From Myxococcales bacterium (GTDB taxonomy: Bacteria; Myxococcota_A; Polyangia; Polyangiales; DASUME01): 64,000 nucleotides of DNA. Position 1 is the first letter of the stretch. Each line of letters opens with the position of its first letter. Below, piece after piece: positions 33,591-42,440 of the stretch. The notes beneath the pieces were generated by a model. It did not search any database. It had not been told where the DNA came from and saw nothing but the letters and a program-made list of their open reading frames with translations. Made by a program: the position numbers and the translations under genes. The DNA is taken from assembly GCA_047601445.1 (NCBI GenBank), contig JASGJH010000001.1, forward strand, positions 992,001 to 1,056,000, written 5' to 3'.

Positions 33591-35921
33591 TCATGGCTTG
33601 GTTGACCCATCCGGCAGCACGGCTGGATCCCAGGCGTCCACCGAGAGCTTCCTGCCGTCACTCGTGACGCGAACGCCTCCGACGACATCGGTACGCAGCA
33701 CGTGCTGCGATGCACTCTGCAGTCGCTCCATCACGTCCGCGTGGGGATGACCGAAGCGGTTGGCTCGCCCGGCGCTGATCACGCTGAGCCAGGGCGAAAC
33801 CCGCGCGAGAAAGGCGGGCGTACTCGATGTCCGCGAGCCGTGGTGGCCTACCTTCAGGACGTCACTCGCGAGCGCTTCCGGGGTGCGTTCAACGAGTGAC
33901 GTTTCGGTGGCGTGCTCTGCATCGCCCATCAAGAGAAACGAGCGCTCGCCGTGGGTCAGCCGAATGACCCACGAGTTGTCATTGGCATCGAGCGCCTCGT
34001 CGAAGCCAGGGCACGGCGAAAGCACCCTGAGCGCCGCGCCGCCGAGCGGGAATGCCTGGCCACAGCGCTCGGCCGGTCTCACGATGCGCACGCCGCGCTC
34101 CAAGGCTCGCTTGAGGAGTTGCGTCGCCGCCCCGCTGCCGCCTTCGGCCTCTGCTTGGCCCGTGTCCCAGAGCTCGCCCACCTCCACCGCATCGAGCACC
34201 GCGAACAGCCCGCCATAGTGATCCGGGTGAGGGTGGCTCAGGATCACGGCGTCCAAGCGGCCAATGCGCCGGGCCCTGAGCAGGGGCACCACCGACTCGC
34301 TGCCAGGGTCGGGGCCGCCTTGCACGGCACCTCCGGCGTCCACCAGGGCCGCGCTGCCGCTGCCGCTCTCGATGAGGACGGCATCGCCCTGGCCCACATC
34401 GACGAACGTCACACGGAGCTCGTCCGACGAGAGCTCGTGTCGCAAGTGCCATTCGCAGGCGACGAAGCCTAGGCAGGCCAAGACGCTTGCCAGCAGCTTG
34501 GGGCGCAGCGAGAGGCCCGTGAGCCACACGAACGACAGTCCCGCGGCCAGGAGCCCCTGAGTCAACGTGAGCGGAGGAATGGTCAGGCCAGGGTCGAGGT
34601 TCGAACACACGCGCGACGCGTGCAGGAACGCTCCGCTTGCCGTCTCGAACGCCCAGCGTGTGCCCAGCGCATCGGACGCACCGCCGGCCGCAGCAAACAG
34701 CTGCGCCACCACCAGCGGAATCAGCACACCGCCGAGCGGCAAGAGCACCACGTTCGCCACGAGGGCGATGACGGAGGTGGTCCCAAAGCACAGACCGAGA
34801 AAGGGTGCGGTGGCCAGCCAGGCCCGTACGCTCTCCTTGAACGCACCACGGATGCCGCCCGAGCCGTGGGCGGCCGTGAGCAAGGCACCGGTGGCCAACA
34901 CCGACAGCACGAAGCCTGGATGCAACGCGTCGCGCGGCTCGTAGAGCGCGTGGAGCACCACCGCGAACGCCGACACGTGGAGCGCATTCGGTCGATAGCC
35001 GAGTGCGACCAGGCCGTAGAGCAACGAGCTCGTGAATGCAGAGCGCCAAGCGCTCGGCGCCCCGCCGCACGCCATGGCCACGAGCGGCGAGAGCGCGACC
35101 CCCAGGGCCGAGGCTGCCCGCCGCGCCTCGAACCACAAACCGAGCGGCGACCACAACCAGCAGAGCCGCAGTAAGCTGACCAGGGCGCCGGCCAGCACTG
35201 TCACGTGCATGCCTGACACGGCCAGCACGTGGGACACGCCCGCGTTGCGGATGGCGTCGTTCAGCTCGCTCGAGACGGCCATGCCTTCGCCCAGCAGGAG
35301 GGCCCTCGCGATGCCCGCGTGGGGCTCCGAGAGGCTCGCCACGAAGGCCCGACGAATCGCGCCGCGCAGCCGCATGACGTGGTCTGCGAGCCACGATGCC
35401 TGGTCGATGCGGACGGCGGCCGAGGACACCGCGCGTGCGCGCAGGGATACGCGGGCATCGGGCCAGGAGGCAGAGGGCAGGGGGTTACGGAACCTCGGTT
35501 GGCTCGAGACTTTGGCGAGCAGCGTGACGTGGGCCCCCACCGGGAGCTCGTTGTCCGTGGTGAGCGCGAGCCGCGGCTGGCCTTCGGGGCAGGTGTCTGG
35601 ATCGAGAGGTTTACACGCCAGGAGTCGAGCCTCGGACCAGCAGCCCTCGCCGCAACCGGTGCGCAGCACCTCGACACTCAGCCGCGCCACTCCGGTAGCC
35701 ACCGCGGGCTCGACCACTATCGCACCTTGTGCTCCAAGGAGCGCCATCCAGGCGCTGGTGGCGAGTCCGAGCAGGAGAGGCGGAAGCCATGGTCCCTGAG
35801 CCCCATAAGCGGCAAGCACCGCCGCCGCCCCGACGCCTGCACCCCATGCGAGTTCCAGGCCGTGGGACTCCCCCCAGACCAACCCGAGGAAGGAACACAG
35901 CATGACCAAGATCACCGGCAC
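33591..35921 (-). CDS. comEC: DNA uptake competence protein ComEC/Rec2
   Basis: HVLAVSGMHV competence motif; metallo-beta-lactamase DVGQGD, SHPHPDHYGG, KVGHHGS, NRFGHP. Confidence 0.93.
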   Translation of the reverse strand: MPVILVMLCSFLGLVWGESHGLELAWGAGVGAAAVLAAYGAQGPWLPPLLLGLATSAWMALLGAQGAIVVEPAVATGVARLSVEVLRTGCGEGCWSEARLLACKPLDPDTCPEGQPRLALTTDNELPVGAHVTLLAKVSSQPRFRNPLPSASWPDARVSLRARAVSSAAVRIDQASWLADHVMRLRGAIRRAFVASLSEPHAGIARALLLGEGMAVSSELNDAIRNAGVSHVLAVSGMHVTVLAGALVSLLRLCWLWSPLGLWFEARRAASALGVALSPLVAMACGGAPSAWRSAFTSSLLYGLVALGYRPNALHVSAFAVVLHALYEPRDALHPGFVLSVLATGALLTAAHGSGGIRGAFKESVRAWLATAPFLGLCFGTTSVIALVANVVLLPLGGVLIPLVVAQLFAAAGGASDALGTRWAFETASGAFLHASRVCSNLDPGLTIPPLTLTQGLLAAGLSFVWLTGLSLRPKLLASVLACLGFVACEWHLRHELSSDELRVTFVDVGQGDAVLIESGSGSAALVDAGGAVQGGPDPGSESVVPLLRARRIGRLDAVILSHPHPDHYGGLFAVLDAVEVGELWDTGQAEAEGGSGAATQLLKRALERGVRIVRPAERCGQAFPLGGAALRVLSPCPGFDEALDANDNSWVIRLTHGERSFLLMGDAEHATETSLVERTPEALASDVLKVGHHGSRTSSTPAFLARVSPWLSVISAGRANRFGHPHADVMERLQSASQHVLRTDVVGGVRVTSDGRKLSVDAWDPAVLPDGSTKP

Positions 35922-36064
35922 GAAGCCTTTTTAGGCAACGTTGGTTCCCGGTTGTTTTTGCGTGATTTCAGCTACTTGTGACACGTGTCCGGTGGTGACC
36001 GTCACACCCCGCCGGCGACCCGCATTTGACACGCCATAAAAACGCCATACATCTGGGGAGCGGC

Positions 36065-36095
36065 ATGACCCTTACGCACGCGTTAGGGTTAGGGT
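36065..36095 (+). promoter_or_regulatory. MerR-type promoter/operator
   Basis: ATGACC (36065-70), 19-nt spacer, TAGGGT (36090-95); palindrome ACCCTTACGC-AC-GCGTTAGGGT at 36068-36089 (one mismatch). Confidence 0.7.
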
Positions 36096-36102
36096 TGAGA
36101 AC

Positions 36103-36654
36103 ATGGCCATCACCCTTCCACTCAATAAGCAGTTCCACCCCGATCCCGAGGCAGCCTCGGATCGTTCGGAGCGGCTGAATACGTCGCTCTCGACCTTGCG
36201 AGTGGGAGACTTGGCCAAGCGCACGGGGAAAACCGTACGCGCACTGCACCTCTACGAAGAGCACGGTCTGCTCTCCCCCGCACAGCGCTCCAACGGCGGC
36301 TATCGCCTCTACAACCGCGCCTCTGAATTGCGCGTGCGCTGGATCGACAAGCTCCAGCAAATGGGCTTCTCCCTCAGCGACATCAAGCAGATCGTCAGCG
36401 ACGTCGACCGCAGCAAGAACGCGCCCGACGCCATGCAGCGGGTGCAGGACCTGTTTCGTGAAAAGCTGACTGAAACGCGCGAGCAGCTGCGCCGACTGTC
36501 TGCTCTGGAATCCGAGCTCAAGTCCAGCCTCGACTACCTCGAGGCATGCGACTCCTGCGACACCGAGGAGCTCCTCGGCGCCTGCACCGACTGTGCTCGC
36601 CACGCCTGCGAGCACAAGGCCCCCGATCTCGTGGCTGGCTTCCGCGTTCACTGA
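36103..36654 (+). CDS. MerR-family regulator with C-terminal CX2C-X8-CX2C-X4-C motif
   Basis: LRVGDLAKRTGKTVRALHLYEEHGLL...GGYRLY, MGFSLSDIK; Cys cluster at 36547-36609. Confidence 0.92.
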   Translation: MAITLPLNKQFHPDPEAASDRSERLNTSLSTLRVGDLAKRTGKTVRALHLYEEHGLLSPAQRSNGGYRLYNRASELRVRWIDKLQQMGFSLSDIKQIVSDVDRSKNAPDAMQRVQDLFREKLTETREQLRRLSALESELKSSLDYLEACDSCDTEELLGACTDCARHACEHKAPDLVAGFRVH

Positions 36655-36702
36655 GAACCGCGAAGCGCCACCTCGCACCCACCCTCCGAAAGGCTCTCCG
36701 TC

Positions 36703-37929
36703 ATGGCCCTGAAGCTACCCATCTACATGGACAACCACGCGACCACGCCGGTCGATCCGCGCGTGCTCGAGGCCATGATCCCGTATTTCACGCTCGATTT
36801 CGGCAACGCAGCCAGCCGCAACCACGCATTCGGCTGGAAGGCCGAGGAGGCGGTGGACTACGCCCGCGAGCAGATCGCCAAGCTCATCAACGCGAGCAGC
36901 GACAAAGAAATCGTGCTCACCTCGGGCGCCACCGAGAGCGACAACCTGGCGATCAAGGGCGTGGCCGAGTTCTACAAGGACAAGGGCAACCACATCATCA
37001 CCACGCGCACCGAGCACAAGGCCGTGCTCGACACCTGCAAGAAGCTCGAGAAGCAGGGCTACGAGATCACCTACCTCGACGTGGGTGAAGACGGTCTGAT
37101 CAAGCCCGAGCAGGTGGAAGCGGCGATCACGCCCAAGACCATCCTGGTCTCGGTGATGCTCGCGAACAACGAAGTCGGCTCGGTGCTGCCCATCGCGGAA
37201 ATCGGGCAGATCACGCGCAAGAAGGGCGTCCTCCTCCACACCGACGCCGTGCAGGGTGTGGGCAAGGTGGAGTTCGACGTCGAGAAGATGAACGTCGACC
37301 TGGCGAGCCTGTCGGCGCACAAGATGTACGGGCCCAAGGGCGTGGGCGCGCTCTACGTGCGGCGCCAAAAACCTCGCGTGCGCATCGTGGGACAAATGGA
37401 CGGTGGCGGACACGAGCGCGGGATGCGCTCGGGCACGCTCAACGTGCCGGGCATCGTGGGCTTCGGCAGGGCCGCGGACATCGCTGTGAAGGAGTGGCGC
37501 GACGATGCCACGCGCATCTTCGGGATGCGCCAGCGCCTGCGTCAGAAGCTGTTCTCCAGCCTCGACCTGATCCACCTCAACGGCGCGGACGATCCACACC
37601 GCCTGCCGGGCAACCTGAACGTCTCCTTCTCCTTCGTGGAGGGCGAGGCGATGATGATGGCGATCCGCGACGTCGCGGTGTCCTCGGGCAGCGCCTGCAC
37701 CAGCGCCAGCCTCGAGCCGAGCTACGTGCTGCGCGCCATGGGCGTCGACGAAGAGCTCGCGCACTCGTCCATCCGCTTCGGCATCGGCAAGTTCAACACG
37801 GACGAGGAGATCGATTACGTGGCCGATCTCGTGATCAGCTCCGTGCGCCGACTGCGCGAGATGTCTCCGCTCTACGAGATGCACAAGGAAGGCATCGATA
37901 TCAAATCCATCCAGTGGGCCGCCCACTGA
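36703..37929 (+). CDS. iscS: Cysteine desulfurase
   Basis: [42 protein letters not shown] end. Confidence 0.97.
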
Positions 37930-38007
37930 GCTACCCCCCTCGAGCCCAGAACACGTAGCAGAACACCCTCGCTCGCAGCCGCGAGAGAGCCGCAAAGGAA
38001 GACCGCC

Positions 38008-38418
38008 ATGGCTTACTCAGACAAGGTCATCGACCACTACGAAAATCCCCGCAACGTCGGCACCCTCGACAAGAGCGACGAATCGGTCGGCACCGGCTTG
38101 GTGGGAGCACCGGCGTGCGGCGACGTGATGCGCCTGCAGCTGCGCATCAACCCCGAAACCGACGTTATCGAGGACGCCAAGTTCAAGACTTTCGGTTGCG
38201 GCAGCGCCATCGCCTCTTCCTCGCTCGTCACTGAGTGGGTCAAGGGCAAGACGGTGGACGAGGCCATGAAGCTGAAGAACACCCAGATCGTGGAGGAGCT
38301 CAACCTGCCTCCCGTGAAGATCCATTGCTCCGTGTTGGCCGAGGACGCCATCAAGAGCGCCATCGCCGACTTCCGCAAGAAGCAAGCGGAGCGTAGAGCC
38401 GCCTCCGAATCAAAGTGA
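38008..38418 (+). CDS. iscU: Fe-S scaffold
   Basis: YSDKVIDHYENPRNVG, GAPACGD, FGCGSA, LPPVKIHC. Confidence 0.98.
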   Translation: MAYSDKVIDHYENPRNVGTLDKSDESVGTGLVGAPACGDVMRLQLRINPETDVIEDAKFKTFGCGSAIASSSLVTEWVKGKTVDEAMKLKNTQIVEELNLPPVKIHCSVLAEDAIKSAIADFRKKQAERRAASESK

Positions 38419-38426
38419 GTGAGGTC

Positions 38427-38864
38427 ATGTCTCAGCCAGAGCCACAGAAGGTCGAAGCGCGCGCGCCCGCGCGGGTCGAGGCCCAGGATCCGCTCGCGGG
38501 CATCGAGGCCTTGGTGCCCGAGAACGTCGAGGGCACGCCTGACATCCGCCTCACCAAGAAGGCGGTGGAGATGGCCAAGAAGTCCATCGAGCGCCGTGGT
38601 GTGCCCACGGAGGGGCTGCGGCTGGGCGTGAAGGGCGGCGGCTGTTCGGGCGTTTCCTATGCCATCGAGTTCGCGGACAAGATTCGCGGGCGCGACCACG
38701 TGTTCGAGTTTCTGGGGCTCAAGGTGGTGGTCGACCCCAAGAGCCTCATCTATCTGCGCGGTTCCATCCTCGACTACGAAGTCAAGCTCATGCAGCACGG
38801 CTTCAAGTTCCGGAACCCCAACGAGAAGGCCGGCTGCGGCTGCGGCGAGTCCTTCACCGTATAG
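38427..38864 (+). CDS. iscA: A-type Fe-S carrier
   Basis: GGGCSG, CGCGESF; ATG 38427 after GAGGT (alternative GTG 38415). Confidence 0.93.
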   Translation: MSQPEPQKVEARAPARVEAQDPLAGIEALVPENVEGTPDIRLTKKAVEMAKKSIERRGVPTEGLRLGVKGGGCSGVSYAIEFADKIRGRDHVFEFLGLKVVVDPKSLIYLRGSILDYEVKLMQHGFKFRNPNEKAGCGCGESFTV

Positions 38865-38972
38865 CCCGTCGAGGGCGGCACAAAGGCTGCAATCATGATC
38901 CTTCGTGAGCGCAGCGAACCTCGCGGAGGGGGTGGGGCCCGCGTGACCTCCCCGCTGAAACCAGGGGACAGC

Positions 38973-39500
38973 ATGGATGCCTTCGATGTGCTGGCGCTCA
39001 AGCCTGCCTTTGATCTCGACCCAAGCGAGCTCGAGCAGCGCTATCGCGACCTGCAGAAGCAACTCCATCCGGACAAGTTCGTGCAAGCGTCCGCGAGCGA
39101 GAAGCGCGTCAGCTTGAGTCGGGCGGTCGACGTCAACCAGGCCTACCGATCCCTGCGTGACGCGCTCAAGCGCGGTGAGATCTTGCTGACTCGTCTGTCG
39201 GGCGTTCAAGCCGGCGCGGAGACCACGGATCCGGGGCTCTTGATGGAGATCATGGAGCTGCGCGAAGGCCTGGCGGAGGCCAAGGGCGAGCGCAACGCGG
39301 CTGCCGTGAGTGCGCTCAAGGCCGACGTGCTCACACGGGAAGACGGCGCACTCGGCTCACTGAAGCAAGCCTTCCAGGTGCTCGAGCGAGGCCCGGACGG
39401 TGCGGCGCGCGCAGAAGCCCATCGCGCGCTGTCACGACTGCGCTATTACCGGCGCTTCCAGGAAGAAGTCGCGCGCTTCGAAGAGGAGACAGCGGAGTAA
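38973..39500 (+). CDS. hscB: J-domain co-chaperone
   Basis: LQKQLHPDKF, VNQAYRSL, LMEIMELRE. Confidence 0.92.
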   Translation: MDAFDVLALKPAFDLDPSELEQRYRDLQKQLHPDKFVQASASEKRVSLSRAVDVNQAYRSLRDALKRGEILLTRLSGVQAGAETTDPGLLMEIMELREGLAEAKGERNAAAVSALKADVLTREDGALGSLKQAFQVLERGPDGAARAEAHRALSRLRYYRRFQEEVARFEEETAE

Positions 39501-39503
39501 GTC

Positions 39504-41450
39504 ATGGCCCTGCTTCAGATACACGACCCTCAGGCACAGAAGACGCCGATCGGGATCGATCTGGGCACCACCAATAGCTTGATCGCCCACGTGACCGCCA
39601 CCGGCACGCCAGCGACCATCCTCGACTGCGACAACGAGGCCCTGGTGCCGTCGGTGGTGCACTACGGGAAGGATGGCCGGGTGTTGGTGGGCAAGGACGC
39701 GCTCGCGCTGGCCGAGAGCTTCCCCGAGGACACCATCATCAGCGTGAAGCGCTTCATGGGGCGCGGCGCGGGTGATCCGGAGACGCGCAAGCTCGGCCCG
39801 TATCGCTTCGCGACCAACGAAGGTCCCGTGGTGAAGCTCGACGTAGCCAAGTCACGCGTGGTGACCCCGGTGGAGGTGAGCGCGGAGATCCTCGCGTTTC
39901 TGCGCGAGCAGGCCGAGGACTCGCTGGGCGGGGTAGGGGGCGCGGTGATCACGGTGCCCGCGTACTTCGACGATGCTCAACGCCAGGCCACCAAGGACGC
40001 CGGACGCCTGGCCGGTCTCGACGTGCTGCGCCTGCTCAACGAGCCCACGGCCGCCGCGCTCGCGTACGGCCTCCAGGAGAAGCAGAACGGCACCTTCGCC
40101 GTGTACGATCTCGGAGGCGGGACCTTCGACGTGACCATCCTGTCGCTCGAGGACGGCGTCTTTCAGGTGCGCTCCACGGGCGGCGATAGTCAGCTCGGCG
40201 GCGACGACATCGACCGCGCTTTGGCCCACGTGTTCCTCGAGCAGATGGGTTACGACAGCGAGGCAGCCCTGCCGGCCAGCTTGGTGCGACACCTGATCCA
40301 GTCCGCCAAGGCGGTGAAGCACGCGCTCACCCACGCGGACAGCGTGGAGGCCGAGATCGAGCGCCCGGACGGCTCGACCTTCGTGCGTGGCGTGACCCGC
40401 GCAGAGCTCGACGCGCTGGTGAAGCCCCTGGCGCAGCGCACGGGTACCGCCTGCCGGCGTGCCCTCAGGGACGCTGGGTTCGAGGCCAAGGACCTCGACG
40501 GTGTGATCCTGGTGGGCGGGTCCACGCGGGTCCCGTTCATTCGCAACTACGTCAAGGAGCTGTTCGGCAAGGAGCCGCTCGACTCGCTCGATCCGGATCA
40601 GGTGGTCGCCCTGGGGGCCGCCATCCAAGCGGATTTGTTGGCGGGTACGGGACCCAAGCATGAGGTCCTCCTGCTCGACGTGATCCCGCTCTCCCTCGGC
40701 ATCGAGACCATGGGCGGCGTGGCGGAGAAAATCCTACCGCGCAACTCCCCCATCCCCGCGGCCCAGGCCCAGGAATTCACCACCTACGCCGACAACCAAA
40801 CCGGTTTCGAGCTCCACGTGGTGCAGGGCGAGCGCGAGCTGGCCCAGGACTGTCGTTCGCTGGCGCGCTTCACGCTCAAGGGCATCCCGCCCATGCCCGC
40901 AGGTCTGCCGCGGCTGCGCGTGACGTTTCGCGTGGACGCGGACGGCCTGCTCAAGGTGGAAGCCGAAGAGAAGACCACGGGCACGCGCCAGGAAGTCGAA
41001 GTGAAGCCGAGCTACGGGCTCACCGACGACGAGGTCGAGCGCATGTTGCTCGATGCCTACGAGCACGGTGAAGAAGATGTGAAGCTTCGGCGCTTGCGCG
41101 AGGAGCAGGTCGACGCGCAGCGCATCCTGGCGTCGCTCGAGCAGGCCATCGAACGCGACCGCGAGTTACTCACGGACGAGGAGGAGCGAGCGGATATCGA
41201 GGGCGCCATTCGGCGGCTCAAGCGCGCGTTGGCCGGCCAGGACTACGACGAGATCCACAATCGCATCGAAGACCTCGACCAAGCCTCGAAGGCCTTCGCC
41301 GGGCGCCGCATGGACCGCAGCATCGCCCAGGCGCTGGCCGGGCGCGCGGCCTCGCAACTTGAAGACGAAACCAAGACCGCGCGCGGGATCGAGCCCCACC
41401 TGGGGCACAGTCCGTCTTCCGACGACGGGCCCAGTTCGGAGAAGCACTGA
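39504..41450 (+). CDS. hscA: Fe-S Hsp70 chaperone
   Basis: MALLQI, GIDLGTTNS, DLGGGTFD, PLSLGIETMGG, VKPSYGLTD. Confidence 0.95.
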   Translation: MALLQIHDPQAQKTPIGIDLGTTNSLIAHVTATGTPATILDCDNEALVPSVVHYGKDGRVLVGKDALALAESFPEDTIISVKRFMGRGAGDPETRKLGPYRFATNEGPVVKLDVAKSRVVTPVEVSAEILAFLREQAEDSLGGVGGAVITVPAYFDDAQRQATKDAGRLAGLDVLRLLNEPTAAALAYGLQEKQNGTFAVYDLGGGTFDVTILSLEDGVFQVRSTGGDSQLGGDDIDRALAHVFLEQMGYDSEAALPASLVRHLIQSAKAVKHALTHADSVEAEIERPDGSTFVRGVTRAELDALVKPLAQRTGTACRRALRDAGFEAKDLDGVILVGGSTRVPFIRNYVKELFGKEPLDSLDPDQVVALGAAIQADLLAGTGPKHEVLLLDVIPLSLGIETMGGVAEKILPRNSPIPAAQAQEFTTYADNQTGFELHVVQGERELAQDCRSLARFTLKGIPPMPAGLPRLRVTFRVDADGLLKVEAEEKTTGTRQEVEVKPSYGLTDDEVERMLLDAYEHGEEDVKLRRLREEQVDAQRILASLEQAIERDRELLTDEEERADIEGAIRRLKRALAGQDYDEIHNRIEDLDQASKAFAGRRMDRSIAQALAGRAASQLEDETKTARGIEPHLGHSPSSDDGPSSEKH

Positions 41451-41815
41451 TGCCGAAAGTACGTTTCCTGCGGGAGAATCTCGAGGTCGAGATCGAACCT
41501 GGCCAAACCATCCTCGAAGCCGCCAAGAAGGCCGGCGCACCCGAGGGCGACCGCTGCGGTGGTGTTTGCGCTTGCTCCACCTGCCACGTCTACGTGACCA
41601 AGGGCTTCGACTCGCTCTCGGAGATCGAAGACGAAGAGTTCGACATCCTCGACAAGGCCTTCGATGTTCGCAGCACGAGCCGCCTCGGCTGTCAGGCCAA
41701 GGTGGAGGGCGACGGGGACATCGAGGTGGAAATCAGCGGCGAGAGTTTCCAGGCCTTCGTGGACGAGCACCCGGACCAGAAGGCCCGCGCTCTGGCCATG
41801 CGGCCCCCCAAGTGA
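41450..41815 (+). CDS. fdx: ISC-type 2Fe-2S ferredoxin
   Basis: CGGVCACSTCH...RLGCQ; TGATG coupling to hscA. Confidence 0.95.
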   Translation: MPKVRFLRENLEVEIEPGQTILEAAKKAGAPEGDRCGGVCACSTCHVYVTKGFDSLSEIEDEEFDILDKAFDVRSTSRLGCQAKVEGDGDIEVEISGESFQAFVDEHPDQKARALAMRPPK

Positions 41816-42067: not shown

Positions 42068-42144
42068 GGGCGGTTAGCTCAGCTGGATAGAGCATCGGCC
42101 TCCGGAGCCGAGGGTCACAGGTTCGAATCTTGTACCGCCCGCCA
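42068..42144 (+). tRNA. tRNA-Arg(CCG)
   Basis: Acceptor GGGCGGT/ACCGCCC, D-arm GCTC/GAGC, anticodon stem TCGGC/GCCGA with CT-CCG-GA loop, TTCGAAT T-loop, encoded CCA. Confidence 0.97.
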
Positions 42145-42331: not shown

Positions 42332-42440
42332 GCAACGCTCCTCGCAAATGCGCGAGGTTTTCGTGGTTTAGCTCCCCTAAGTACGGGCTGACATCCCGCA
42401 ATCCTTGGGCCCTCGAGTCCATGGCGGTAGAGTCAGTGGG

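What the first reader, a model, noticed from the sequence alone, without database searches (positions are those of the whole stretch)
36065..41815. ISC Fe-S biogenesis operon headed by a Cys-rich MerR regulator instead of IscR
Seen: merR-iscS-iscU-iscA-hscB-hscA-fdx are co-oriented with short gaps (48 nt between merR and iscS), and no Rrf2/IscR gene is present. The MerR ends in CDSC-x8-CTDC-ARHA-C (36547-36609). Known: isc operons are normally headed by an Rrf2-family regulator; SoxR uses CX2CXCX5C for its 2Fe-2S cluster and CueR uses CX7C, so this motif matches neither. Inference: this may be an undescribed MerR-type Fe-S (or metal/redox) sensor controlling ISC expression, functionally replacing IscR.
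Basis: partly seen in the sequence, partly recalled or inferred. Interest (0 to 1): 0.85.

Follow-up and report, generated by a model that had tools for sequence, protein, structure and literature searches.

The report
MerR-type switch for iron-sulfur assembly
The iron-sulfur-cluster assembly genes here begin with a MerR-family regulator gene with four conserved cysteines, and a matching DNA palindrome sits in front of these genes and, in relatives, in front of the alternative suf assembly genes, so it is likely an undescribed repressor that probably senses the clusters whose supply it controls.

Summary
Observation confirmed, with one correction: four cysteines are conserved (C-x2-C-x8/9-C-x2-C, 80 of 80 genome loci), the fifth is not (46 of 80). 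The merR gene sits directly before iscS in 80 of 80 loci. A 24-bp palindrome (36067-36090) is the only strong site in this 9.5-Mb genome. It lies about 41 nt behind a conserved -35 box with a normal 16-17 nt spacer, which is repressor geometry, not the 19-bp MerR activator geometry. In six relatives that use SUF and lack iscU, the site stands before sufB (5 strong, 1 weak). In four metagenome loci the regulator itself heads suf genes. Suf operons of genomes without this MerR lack the site (0 of 30) and mostly carry an Rrf2 gene (26 of 30). Best reading: a homeostatic repressor that binds an Fe-S cluster, doing the job of IscR/RisR on a MerR scaffold. The ligand is untested: the spacing fits anamorsin's [2Fe-2S] motif but also RecR's zinc finger. 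I found no paper on it. This scan noted the same family before in at least 13 other genomes.

The parts
33591..35921 (-). comEC/rec2, divergent neighbour (conserved neighbour in many relatives, not part of the operon)
   Evidence: Pfam Competence + Lactamase_B; also upstream in many relatives
36026..36031 (+). predicted -35 box (TTGACA) of the operon promoter
   Evidence: sequence; TTGAC lies 36 nt or more before the operator in 74 of 124 loci
36048..36053 (+). predicted -10 box (TACATC), 16-nt spacer; lacks the last T of the consensus
   Evidence: TA at spacer 17 in 46 and at 16 in 11 of 72 promoter-operator pairs; not reported by the strict scan
36067..36090 (.). 24-bp palindromic operator (10-4-10), predicted binding site of the MerR dimer, just downstream of the predicted start of transcription
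   Evidence: 32.9 bits, best in the genome, with a matrix trained without this locus; next site 17.0; 15 bits or more in 116 of 124 loci
36091..36096 (+). extra copy of the right half-site end (AGGGTT), possibly a second register shifted by 6 bp
   Evidence: shifted site scores 9.1 bits; overlapping shifted sites in L117 and L127
36103..36654 (+). MerR-family regulator, 183 aa: variable N-terminal arm, winged HTH, long dimer helix, four-Cys loop, C-terminal PxLVAG helix
36547..36594 (+). C149-x2-C152-x8-C161-x2-C164, predicted metal or Fe-S site
   Evidence: invariant in alignment A1; 80 of 80 loci; 116 of 120 homologues
36607..36609 (+). fifth Cys (C169), variable
   Evidence: 46 of 80 loci
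36703..37929 (+). iscS cysteine desulfurase
   Evidence: NF010611 671 bits, cut-off 548; TIGR02006 637.5, just under 643.2
38008..38418 (+). iscU scaffold
   Evidence: TIGR01999 223.6 bits, cut-off 192.4
38415..38864 (+). iscA, A-type carrier (true start may be later)
   Evidence: TIGR00049 112.4 over cut-off; TIGR02011 IscA under cut-off
38895..39500 (+). hscB co-chaperone (likely start at the second Met, 38973)
   Evidence: TIGR00714 84.8 bits, cut-off 46.75
39504..41450 (+). hscA chaperone
   Evidence: TIGR01991 830.7 bits, cut-off 708.55
41450..41815 (+). fdx, 2Fe-2S ferredoxin
   Evidence: Pfam Fer2; TIGR02007 93.3, under cut-off 132.1
42068..42144 (+). tRNA-Arg(CCG) downstream of fdx; co-transcription untested
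   Evidence: terminator-like site at 42340-42357

Best explanation
The first gene of this isc operon encodes a MerR-family protein with four conserved cysteines that likely binds the palindrome just behind its own promoter and likely represses the whole operon when it carries an iron-sulfur cluster, so that loss of the cluster would switch cluster assembly back on. Shown in sequence and by comparison: the operon, the family, the four Cys, the palindrome, its position, and its presence at suf operons where SUF is used. Predicted: a MerR-type dimer in which each Cys loop packs against the partner's DNA-binding domain. Inferred: that this protein binds this site (about 0.9), that it blocks RNA polymerase rather than twisting the promoter (about 0.8), and that the signal is an Fe-S cluster, [2Fe-2S] or [4Fe-4S], supplied by the operon's own products (about 0.7).
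For: (1) Linkage: iscS directly follows in 80 of 80 genome loci, and the full order iscSUA-hscBA-fdx holds in 52 of 54 loci with enough sequence. Across the phylum it holds in 34 of 35 genomes examined. (2) Site: unique in this genome and present in 27 of 29 isc-linked loci from the phylum sample, one of which was also in the training set. Its half-site has the same register as, and 6 of 8 bases in common with, the E. coli SoxR dyad at soxS, so it looks like a MerR-family site. (3) Geometry: normal 16-17 nt spacer with the operator downstream, whereas the E. coli soxS and copA controls have the dyad inside a 19-nt spacer (PMC11672702 section 3.2.3). (4) The site follows the function, not the gene position. 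Of ten family-f52 genomes with the MerR, four have iscU and no sufB, and six have sufB and no iscU. Before sufB of those six the site scores 28.7, 28.5, 27.3, 19.1, 18.8 and 11.8 bits, with no Rrf2 or MerR gene in the loci. Thirty suf loci from genomes without this MerR score at most 5.9 bits, and 26 of them carry an Rrf2 gene with three or more Cys. (5) In metagenome loci L228, L229, L246 and L294 the regulator itself heads suf genes and carries the site. (6) Two of the four strong off-operon sites precede an A-type carrier and a cysteine synthase-JAB-ThiF cluster. (7) This genome has no SufBD match and no Rrf2 at the IscR cut-off. (8) A near-identical motif, CX2CX7CX2C, binds [2Fe-2S] in anamorsin (PMC8251831, passages). 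(9) Dimer model: score 0.60, best of 3 controls 0.00, runs agree in at least 82% of contacts, pLDDT at least 79. That mark was reached by 20 of 30 solved homodimers and 1 of 23 single chains. The pass probably reflects likeness to solved MerR dimers, and the ligand was not scored.
Against: No binding, ligand or expression data exist for this protein. RecR of this same genome has the identical C-x2-C-x8-C-x2-C spacing and uses it as a structural zinc finger (PMC12192639, passages). The Cys loop is the least confident part of the model (pLDDT 66-68). Canonical MerR proteins stay on DNA with or without ligand, which does not suit simple release from a repressor site. The -10 box is weak (final T in only 3 of 46 pairs at spacer 17), six loci have a site starting within -2 to 7 nt of a TTGAC, and this window itself admits a second, activator-type reading. 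More distant four-Cys MerR proteins are often not beside Fe-S genes: only 17 of 44 such metagenome loci have iscS next, and a sister clade and an f52 paralogue sit beside ribA/Lon-domain, queuosine-salvage or ECF-sigma genes. Three of the six suf genomes are one genus, and one (G136) has a three-Cys Rrf2 elsewhere. In this genome no site lies before the second A-type carrier, cysteine synthases or mrp.
Confidence: 0.55

Rival explanations
1. The protein does repress isc/suf through the palindrome, but the four Cys hold zinc (structural, or a zinc/thiol redox switch), so the signal is oxidation, metal stress or a partner protein rather than the cluster.
For: Same spacing as RecR's C4 zinc finger, also right after a helix. 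Four-Cys relatives occur beside non-Fe-S genes.
Against: The spacer between the Cys pairs varies from about 6 to 12 residues in distant members. Site and gene track two unrelated Fe-S machines and alternate with three-Cys Rrf2 regulators, which suits a cluster sensor.
Confidence: 0.2
2. The four Cys bind a single iron ion (rubredoxin-like) and the protein senses free iron, repressing or de-repressing assembly genes accordingly.
For: Two CxxC pairs are the usual single-metal ligand set (own knowledge). Iron is listed among signals of MerR proteins.
Against: No iron-uptake gene was found behind any of the four strong off-operon sites; the targets are assembly and sulfur-supply genes.
Confidence: 0.1
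3. It works as a SoxR-like activator: it sits in the spacer of a second promoter (a -35-like hexamer at 36065-36070, 19 nt, a -10-like hexamer at 36090-36095) and twists it on when its cluster is oxidised.
For: The window sequence fits that geometry. SoxR is among the tied top structural matches (Z 12.7, rmsd 5.3, 116 aligned), and the half-sites resemble each other.
Against: Only 1 of 116 loci fits this reading, and that one is this window; the upstream TTGAC with a 16-17 nt spacer is what is conserved.
Confidence: 0.08
4. The MerR only regulates itself or unrelated genes, and isc is controlled in trans by an Rrf2 protein or from a promoter inside merR.
For: Trans control by RisR is the rule in M. 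xanthus. This genome has three Rrf2 genes, one with three Cys.
Against: merR and iscS overlap or nearly touch in many relatives (gap -4 or -1 in 12 of 80). The RisR core GAC-N7-GTC is absent from 35921-36102. The three Rrf2 genes neighbour a cysteine synthase, a globin and a short-chain dehydrogenase. The site also stands before suf operons that have no merR beside them, and G150 gave no Rrf2 match.
Confidence: 0.05

Closest known systems
RisR (Rrf2 family, Myxococcus xanthus; PMC9973013)
   Same: Predicted job: one regulator with a site at both isc and suf promoters, acting as a repressor that blocks RNA polymerase; same phylum.
   Different: Rrf2 fold with three Cys, encoded before suf, site GAC-N7-GTC. 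This protein is MerR-fold with four Cys, usually before iscS, with a 10-4-10 palindrome. The two alternate between lineages.
IscR (Rrf2 family, E. coli)
   Same: First gene of iscSUA-hscBA-fdx; predicted autoregulation and negative feedback.
   Different: Unrelated fold and ligand set (three Cys and one His in IscR); no iscX matched here.
SoxR (MerR family, [2Fe-2S]; TIGR01950; PDB 2zhh)
   Same: Same scaffold, four Cys starting with CxxC after the dimer helix, similar half-site and register.
   Different: Motif C-x2-C-x-C-x5-C against C-x2-C-x8-C-x2-C; longer dimer helix; 57.7 bits against a cut-off of 116.9; SoxR activates from a 19-bp spacer.
CueR, ZntR, CadR, MerR (metal-efflux activators)
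   Same: Fold and short C-terminal sensing loop; several database records carry the automatic name 'copper efflux regulator'.
   Different: All family cut-offs missed; no Cys at the start of the dimer helix; no efflux genes adjacent; promoter geometry differs.
MerR-type repressors GlnR and CarA
   Same: MerR-type HTH used for repression (named as repressors in the PDB titles; mechanism recalled).
   Different: No four-Cys loop; other signals (recalled).
Anamorsin M2 motif (CX2CX7CX2C) and RecR C4 zinc finger
   Same: Cys spacing, one binding [2Fe-2S] and one binding zinc.
   Different: No homology shown; no Pfam match to either among the 25 of 62 families listed. They only bracket what the motif can bind.

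Membership tests
MerR family | N-terminal winged HTH followed by a long dimerisation helix | tested here: met
   Pfam MerR_1, MerR, MerR-DNA-bind; helix 79-121 in the model; the top structural matches are MerR proteins
MerR family | Homodimer with the C-terminal sensing loop against the partner subunit | tested here: met
   Predicted only: score 0.60 against best control 0.00, loop 121-133 in the interface; likely by likeness to solved dimers
Canonical MerR activators | Operator inside a 19-20 bp spacer between -35 and -10 | tested here: not met
   Spacer 16-17 nt in 57 of 72 pairs with the operator downstream; activator reading in 1 of 116; 6 loci with a site near the -35 box; controls
SoxR | C-x2-C-x-C-x5-C motif and TIGR01950 cut-off | tested here: not met
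SoxR | Bound [2Fe-2S] cluster | not testable with these tools
   The ligand is not scored
CueR/GolS | C-x7-C loop and TIGR02044 cut-off | tested here: not met
   63.2 bits against 147.4; alignment
ZntR/CadR/PbrR/MerR (divalent) | Cys at the N-terminal end of the dimer helix | tested here: not met
   SAPxAM consensus without Cys; cut-offs missed; feature from PMC11672702
IscR/RisR (Rrf2) | Rrf2 domain with three Cys | tested here: not met
   No Rrf2 match for this protein at E up to 1
Fe-S homeostasis repressors (works like IscR/RisR) | Encoded at the head of, and with a site before, Fe-S assembly operons | tested here: met
Fe-S homeostasis repressors (works like IscR/RisR) | The cluster-bound form represses; the apo form does not | not testable with these tools
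   Needs purified protein and mutants
ISC system | iscS, iscU, iscA, hscB, hscA, fdx in one cluster | tested here: met
   IscA and Fdx match below their specific cut-offs

The most novel reading that the evidence does not exclude
A widespread, unstudied MerR family is a true Fe-S homeostasis sensor: it binds a cluster through a CxxC-x8-CxxC site new to transcription factors, has given up DNA-twisting activation for cluster-gated repression, alternates with Rrf2 regulators across Myxococcota, and has been rewired from ISC to SUF when lineages switched machinery.
Probability: 0.5. Interest if true: 0.78.

Novelty: new variant of a known kind. Interest (0 to 1): 0.63.

Why it matters
The described regulators of Fe-S assembly are Rrf2 proteins (IscR, RisR) or ArsR-like SufR (PMC9973013, Discussion part 1). 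A MerR-fold member would be a further independent recruitment, with a new cluster-binding motif. It would also show a SoxR-like scaffold working as a ligand-gated repressor. It gives a defined protein, a defined 24-bp site and a predicted regulon to test, corrects the automatic 'copper efflux regulator' name on many records, and offers a marker for how lineages switch between ISC and SUF.

Tried and rejected
My first reading, an activator-type promoter around the palindrome, was dropped after comparison. The strict sigma-70 scan found no promoter because the -10 box lacks its last T, and the repeat finder missed the palindrome. Antisense ORF 35968-36678 was rejected as a shadow (GC3 0.65 against 0.81). 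The second site in this genome (17.0 bits, between a sigma-54 activator and a kinase) is within the shuffle range of 13.5-27.3. A loose pattern search had much background: the reversed control matched in 21 of 50 genomes, and 6 matches were not listed. Of 16 off-operon places fetched, 12 scored 17 bits or less. No RNA holder was listed for the stretch, so start site and co-transcription stayed unchecked. Names and taxa for ten distant homologues could not be obtained, so the range outside Myxococcota is open; Atlas clusters were mostly Myxococcota, one Bacillota. No known fold was matched specifically to the Cys loop, which excludes nothing. The tree was the quick version only, with most deep forks open; no order of events is claimed. 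A class-level search around G055 found nothing in 10 genomes. The N-terminal LP[LIVF] motif showed no enrichment in Fe-S-motif ORFs. Literature searches listed no paper on this family; only listings were seen for those hits. Subscription papers, and the supplements and figshare data of PMC9973013, were not seen and could mention it.
Full report
Observation. [quoted passage not shown] The MerR ends in C149-x2-C152-x8-C161-x2-C164-x4-C169 at 36547-36609. It misses the cut-offs of ZntR, CueR, MerR, CadR and SoxR. The closest named relatives are labelled Polyangiales or Myxococcales. The genome is one contig of 9.5 Mb, 98.68% complete. It gave no SufBD match and has three Rrf2 genes. None reaches the IscR cut-off (best 107.9 against 207.55), and they lie beside a cysteine synthase, a globin and a short-chain dehydrogenase.

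The family. A scan of genome contigs confirmed 324 relatives and returned the best 80. All 80 have C-x2/3-C-x8/9-C-x2-C and iscS directly downstream (gap -4 to 190 nt). The whole operon order holds in 52 of 54 loci with at least 5.6 kb of sequence, and the fifth Cys is present in 46 of 80. The four-Cys pattern is in 116 of the 120 best homologues and 114 of 149 new distant representatives; many of the 35 misses look truncated or frameshifted. In 151 genomes across the phylum, 37 have a full-length member (E below 1e-39) and 10 more have only a weaker sister form. I looked at 35 of the 37, and 34 have iscS next. The AlphaFold model (mean pLDDT 90.4; Cys loop 66-68) shows a winged HTH, a helix running up to the first Cys, and a short final helix. 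Structural matches are MerR proteins, with SoxR, TipA, TnrA and GlnR tied. A dimer model places the Cys loop against the partner's DNA-binding domain (score 0.60, best control 0.00, contacts agree in at least 82%, pLDDT at least 79; mark reached by 20 of 30 solved homodimers and 1 of 23 single chains; probably by likeness to solved MerR dimers; ligand unscored). Alignment A2 was filtered in part on the Cys pattern, so I do not count its invariant columns.

The site. A 10-4-10 palindrome lies at 36067-36090. A matrix from 70 unique sites of other loci scores it 32.9 bits. The next site in the genome scores 17.0, and three shuffles peaked at 13.5, 21.6 and 27.3. It reaches 15 bits in 116 of 124 unique merR-iscS loci (partly the training set) and 12 bits in 27 of 29 isc-linked loci from the phylum sample (one also in training). 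Its half-site shares register and 6 of 8 bases with the SoxR dyad at E. coli soxS, which is why I assign it to the MerR.

Geometry. Canonical MerR activators bind inside a 19-20 bp spacer (PMC11672702 section 3.2.3), as the soxS and copA controls show. Here the conserved element is TTGAC with TA after 17 nt (46 of 72 pairs) or 16 nt (11 of 72). The operator starts 36 nt or more behind it in 74 of 124 loci, over or upstream of the -35 box in 22, and over the -10 end or start region in 21 (categories overlap); 22 loci have two operators. These are positions that would block polymerase. Against this: the final T of the -10 box is rare (3 of 46), six loci have a site starting near the -35 box, and one of 116 loci fits an activator reading. 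By its sequence that one is this window.

The site follows the function. sufB was found in 6 of the 37 genomes with the MerR and in 84 of the 114 without (kin are not independent). All six belong to family f52. Among the ten f52 genomes with the MerR, four have iscU and no sufB, and six have sufB and no iscU. In five of those six the isc cluster remains as merR-iscS-iscA plus further chaperone-like genes where the contig allows, and two of them have also lost the site there. Within about 200 nt before sufB the site scores 28.7, 28.5, 27.3, 19.1, 18.8 and 11.8 bits, and no Rrf2 or MerR gene is in those loci; three of the six are one genus. The 30 best-scoring suf loci, all from genomes without the full-length MerR, score at most 5.9 bits within 1.5 kb, and 26 carry an Rrf2 gene with three or more Cys. 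Three of seven iscU loci from such genomes also do. In a partial metagenome scan (best 80 of 568 confirmed; 11 of 64 parts read), 44 loci have the four-Cys pattern. Of these, 17 have iscS next, and in L228, L229, L246 and L294 the gene heads suf genes with a site of 15-21 bits. Other distant members neighbour mrp/apbC, tusA or iscA, but several have no Fe-S neighbour that I could name. Of 16 off-operon places fetched, four scored above 20 bits: before an A-type carrier (divergent from a rhodanese-ThiF gene), a cysteine synthase-JAB-ThiF cluster, an ECF sigma factor and a Crp-family regulator. In this genome the predicted regulon is the isc operon alone.

Mechanism. Most likely the dimer binds the palindrome and blocks transcription of merR-iscSUA-hscBA-fdx when loaded with a cluster made by those gene products. 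Iron shortage or oxidation would strip the cluster and lift repression. Binding, direction and ligand are inferred. For the ligand, anamorsin's CX2CX7CX2C binds [2Fe-2S] in cells (PMC8251831, passages), while RecR, with the identical spacing in this genome, binds structural zinc (PMC12192639, passages). Sequence cannot decide between them. The alternation with three-Cys Rrf2 regulators and the move to suf favour a cluster. Because canonical MerR proteins do not leave DNA on ligand change, cluster-gated release is the weakest step.

What is known. In M. xanthus the isc operon has no regulator gene; holo-RisR represses isc and suf by occlusion, and the main text never mentions MerR (PMC9973013: abstract, passages, Results part 1 of 3 and Discussion part 1 of 2 read). 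In the passages of the 2024 metallostasis review that I saw, SoxR is the only Fe-S MerR named (only the first half of that text is held). Six searches listed no paper on a MerR at isc or suf operons; closed-access papers and supplements were not covered. Earlier notes of this scan describe the same family in at least 13 other genomes. They are unchecked leads and not independent support; a word search for the suf link returned none.

Verdict. The feature is real and conserved. The protein is a MerR-family member but not a SoxR, CueR, ZntR, IscR or RisR. It most likely works like RisR/IscR. New variant of a known kind; interest 0.63.

Noticed in passing
window 42068-42144: tRNA-Arg(CCG) 252 nt behind fdx, same strand, before the only terminator-like site; the M. 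xanthus isc operon ends in a tRNA-Leu.
   Followed up: partly
window 36103-36130: The variable N-terminal arm starts with an LP[LIVF] motif in 92 of 120 close homologues, resembling the start of IscS; not enriched in Fe-S-motif ORFs of the genome (3 of 57 against 218 of 6214). Role unknown.
   Followed up: partly
L114, L118, L122, L124 (family f52); L190: A second four-Cys paralogue with its own copy of the site heads an ECF sigma factor gene, near queG in two genomes; in G136 the site stands before the ECF gene without the paralogue.
   Followed up: partly
L115, L119, L121, L126, L132: isc clusters without iscU in SUF-using genomes, most with a strongly diverged, partial HscA match (29-35% identity): possibly an ISC remnant in decay or put to other use.
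   Followed up: partly
L148-L152: A sister clade of four-Cys MerR with another recognition helix and no such site, beside ribA and Lon-domain genes or a queuosine salvage gene.
   Followed up: partly
L256, L262, L265, L266, L271, L272, L281, L284, L297: A distant clade with a CxxC-x8-CPxC tail and, in several loci, a related palindrome; tusA lies directly upstream in three loci.
   Followed up: partly
L192:2533: A strong site (34.1 bits) right behind a TTGACA promoter of a Crp-family regulator whose likely coding part has no Cys.
   Followed up: partly
G000:C1:3965952-3967062: A SufS/CsdA-type desulfurase match in two frames (split near 3966690), a frameshift or an assembly error.
   Followed up: no
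L001 and L307-L310: The Rrf2 beside cysteine synthase in this genome has a single Cys, while similar proteins in G136 and G126 keep three.
   Followed up: no
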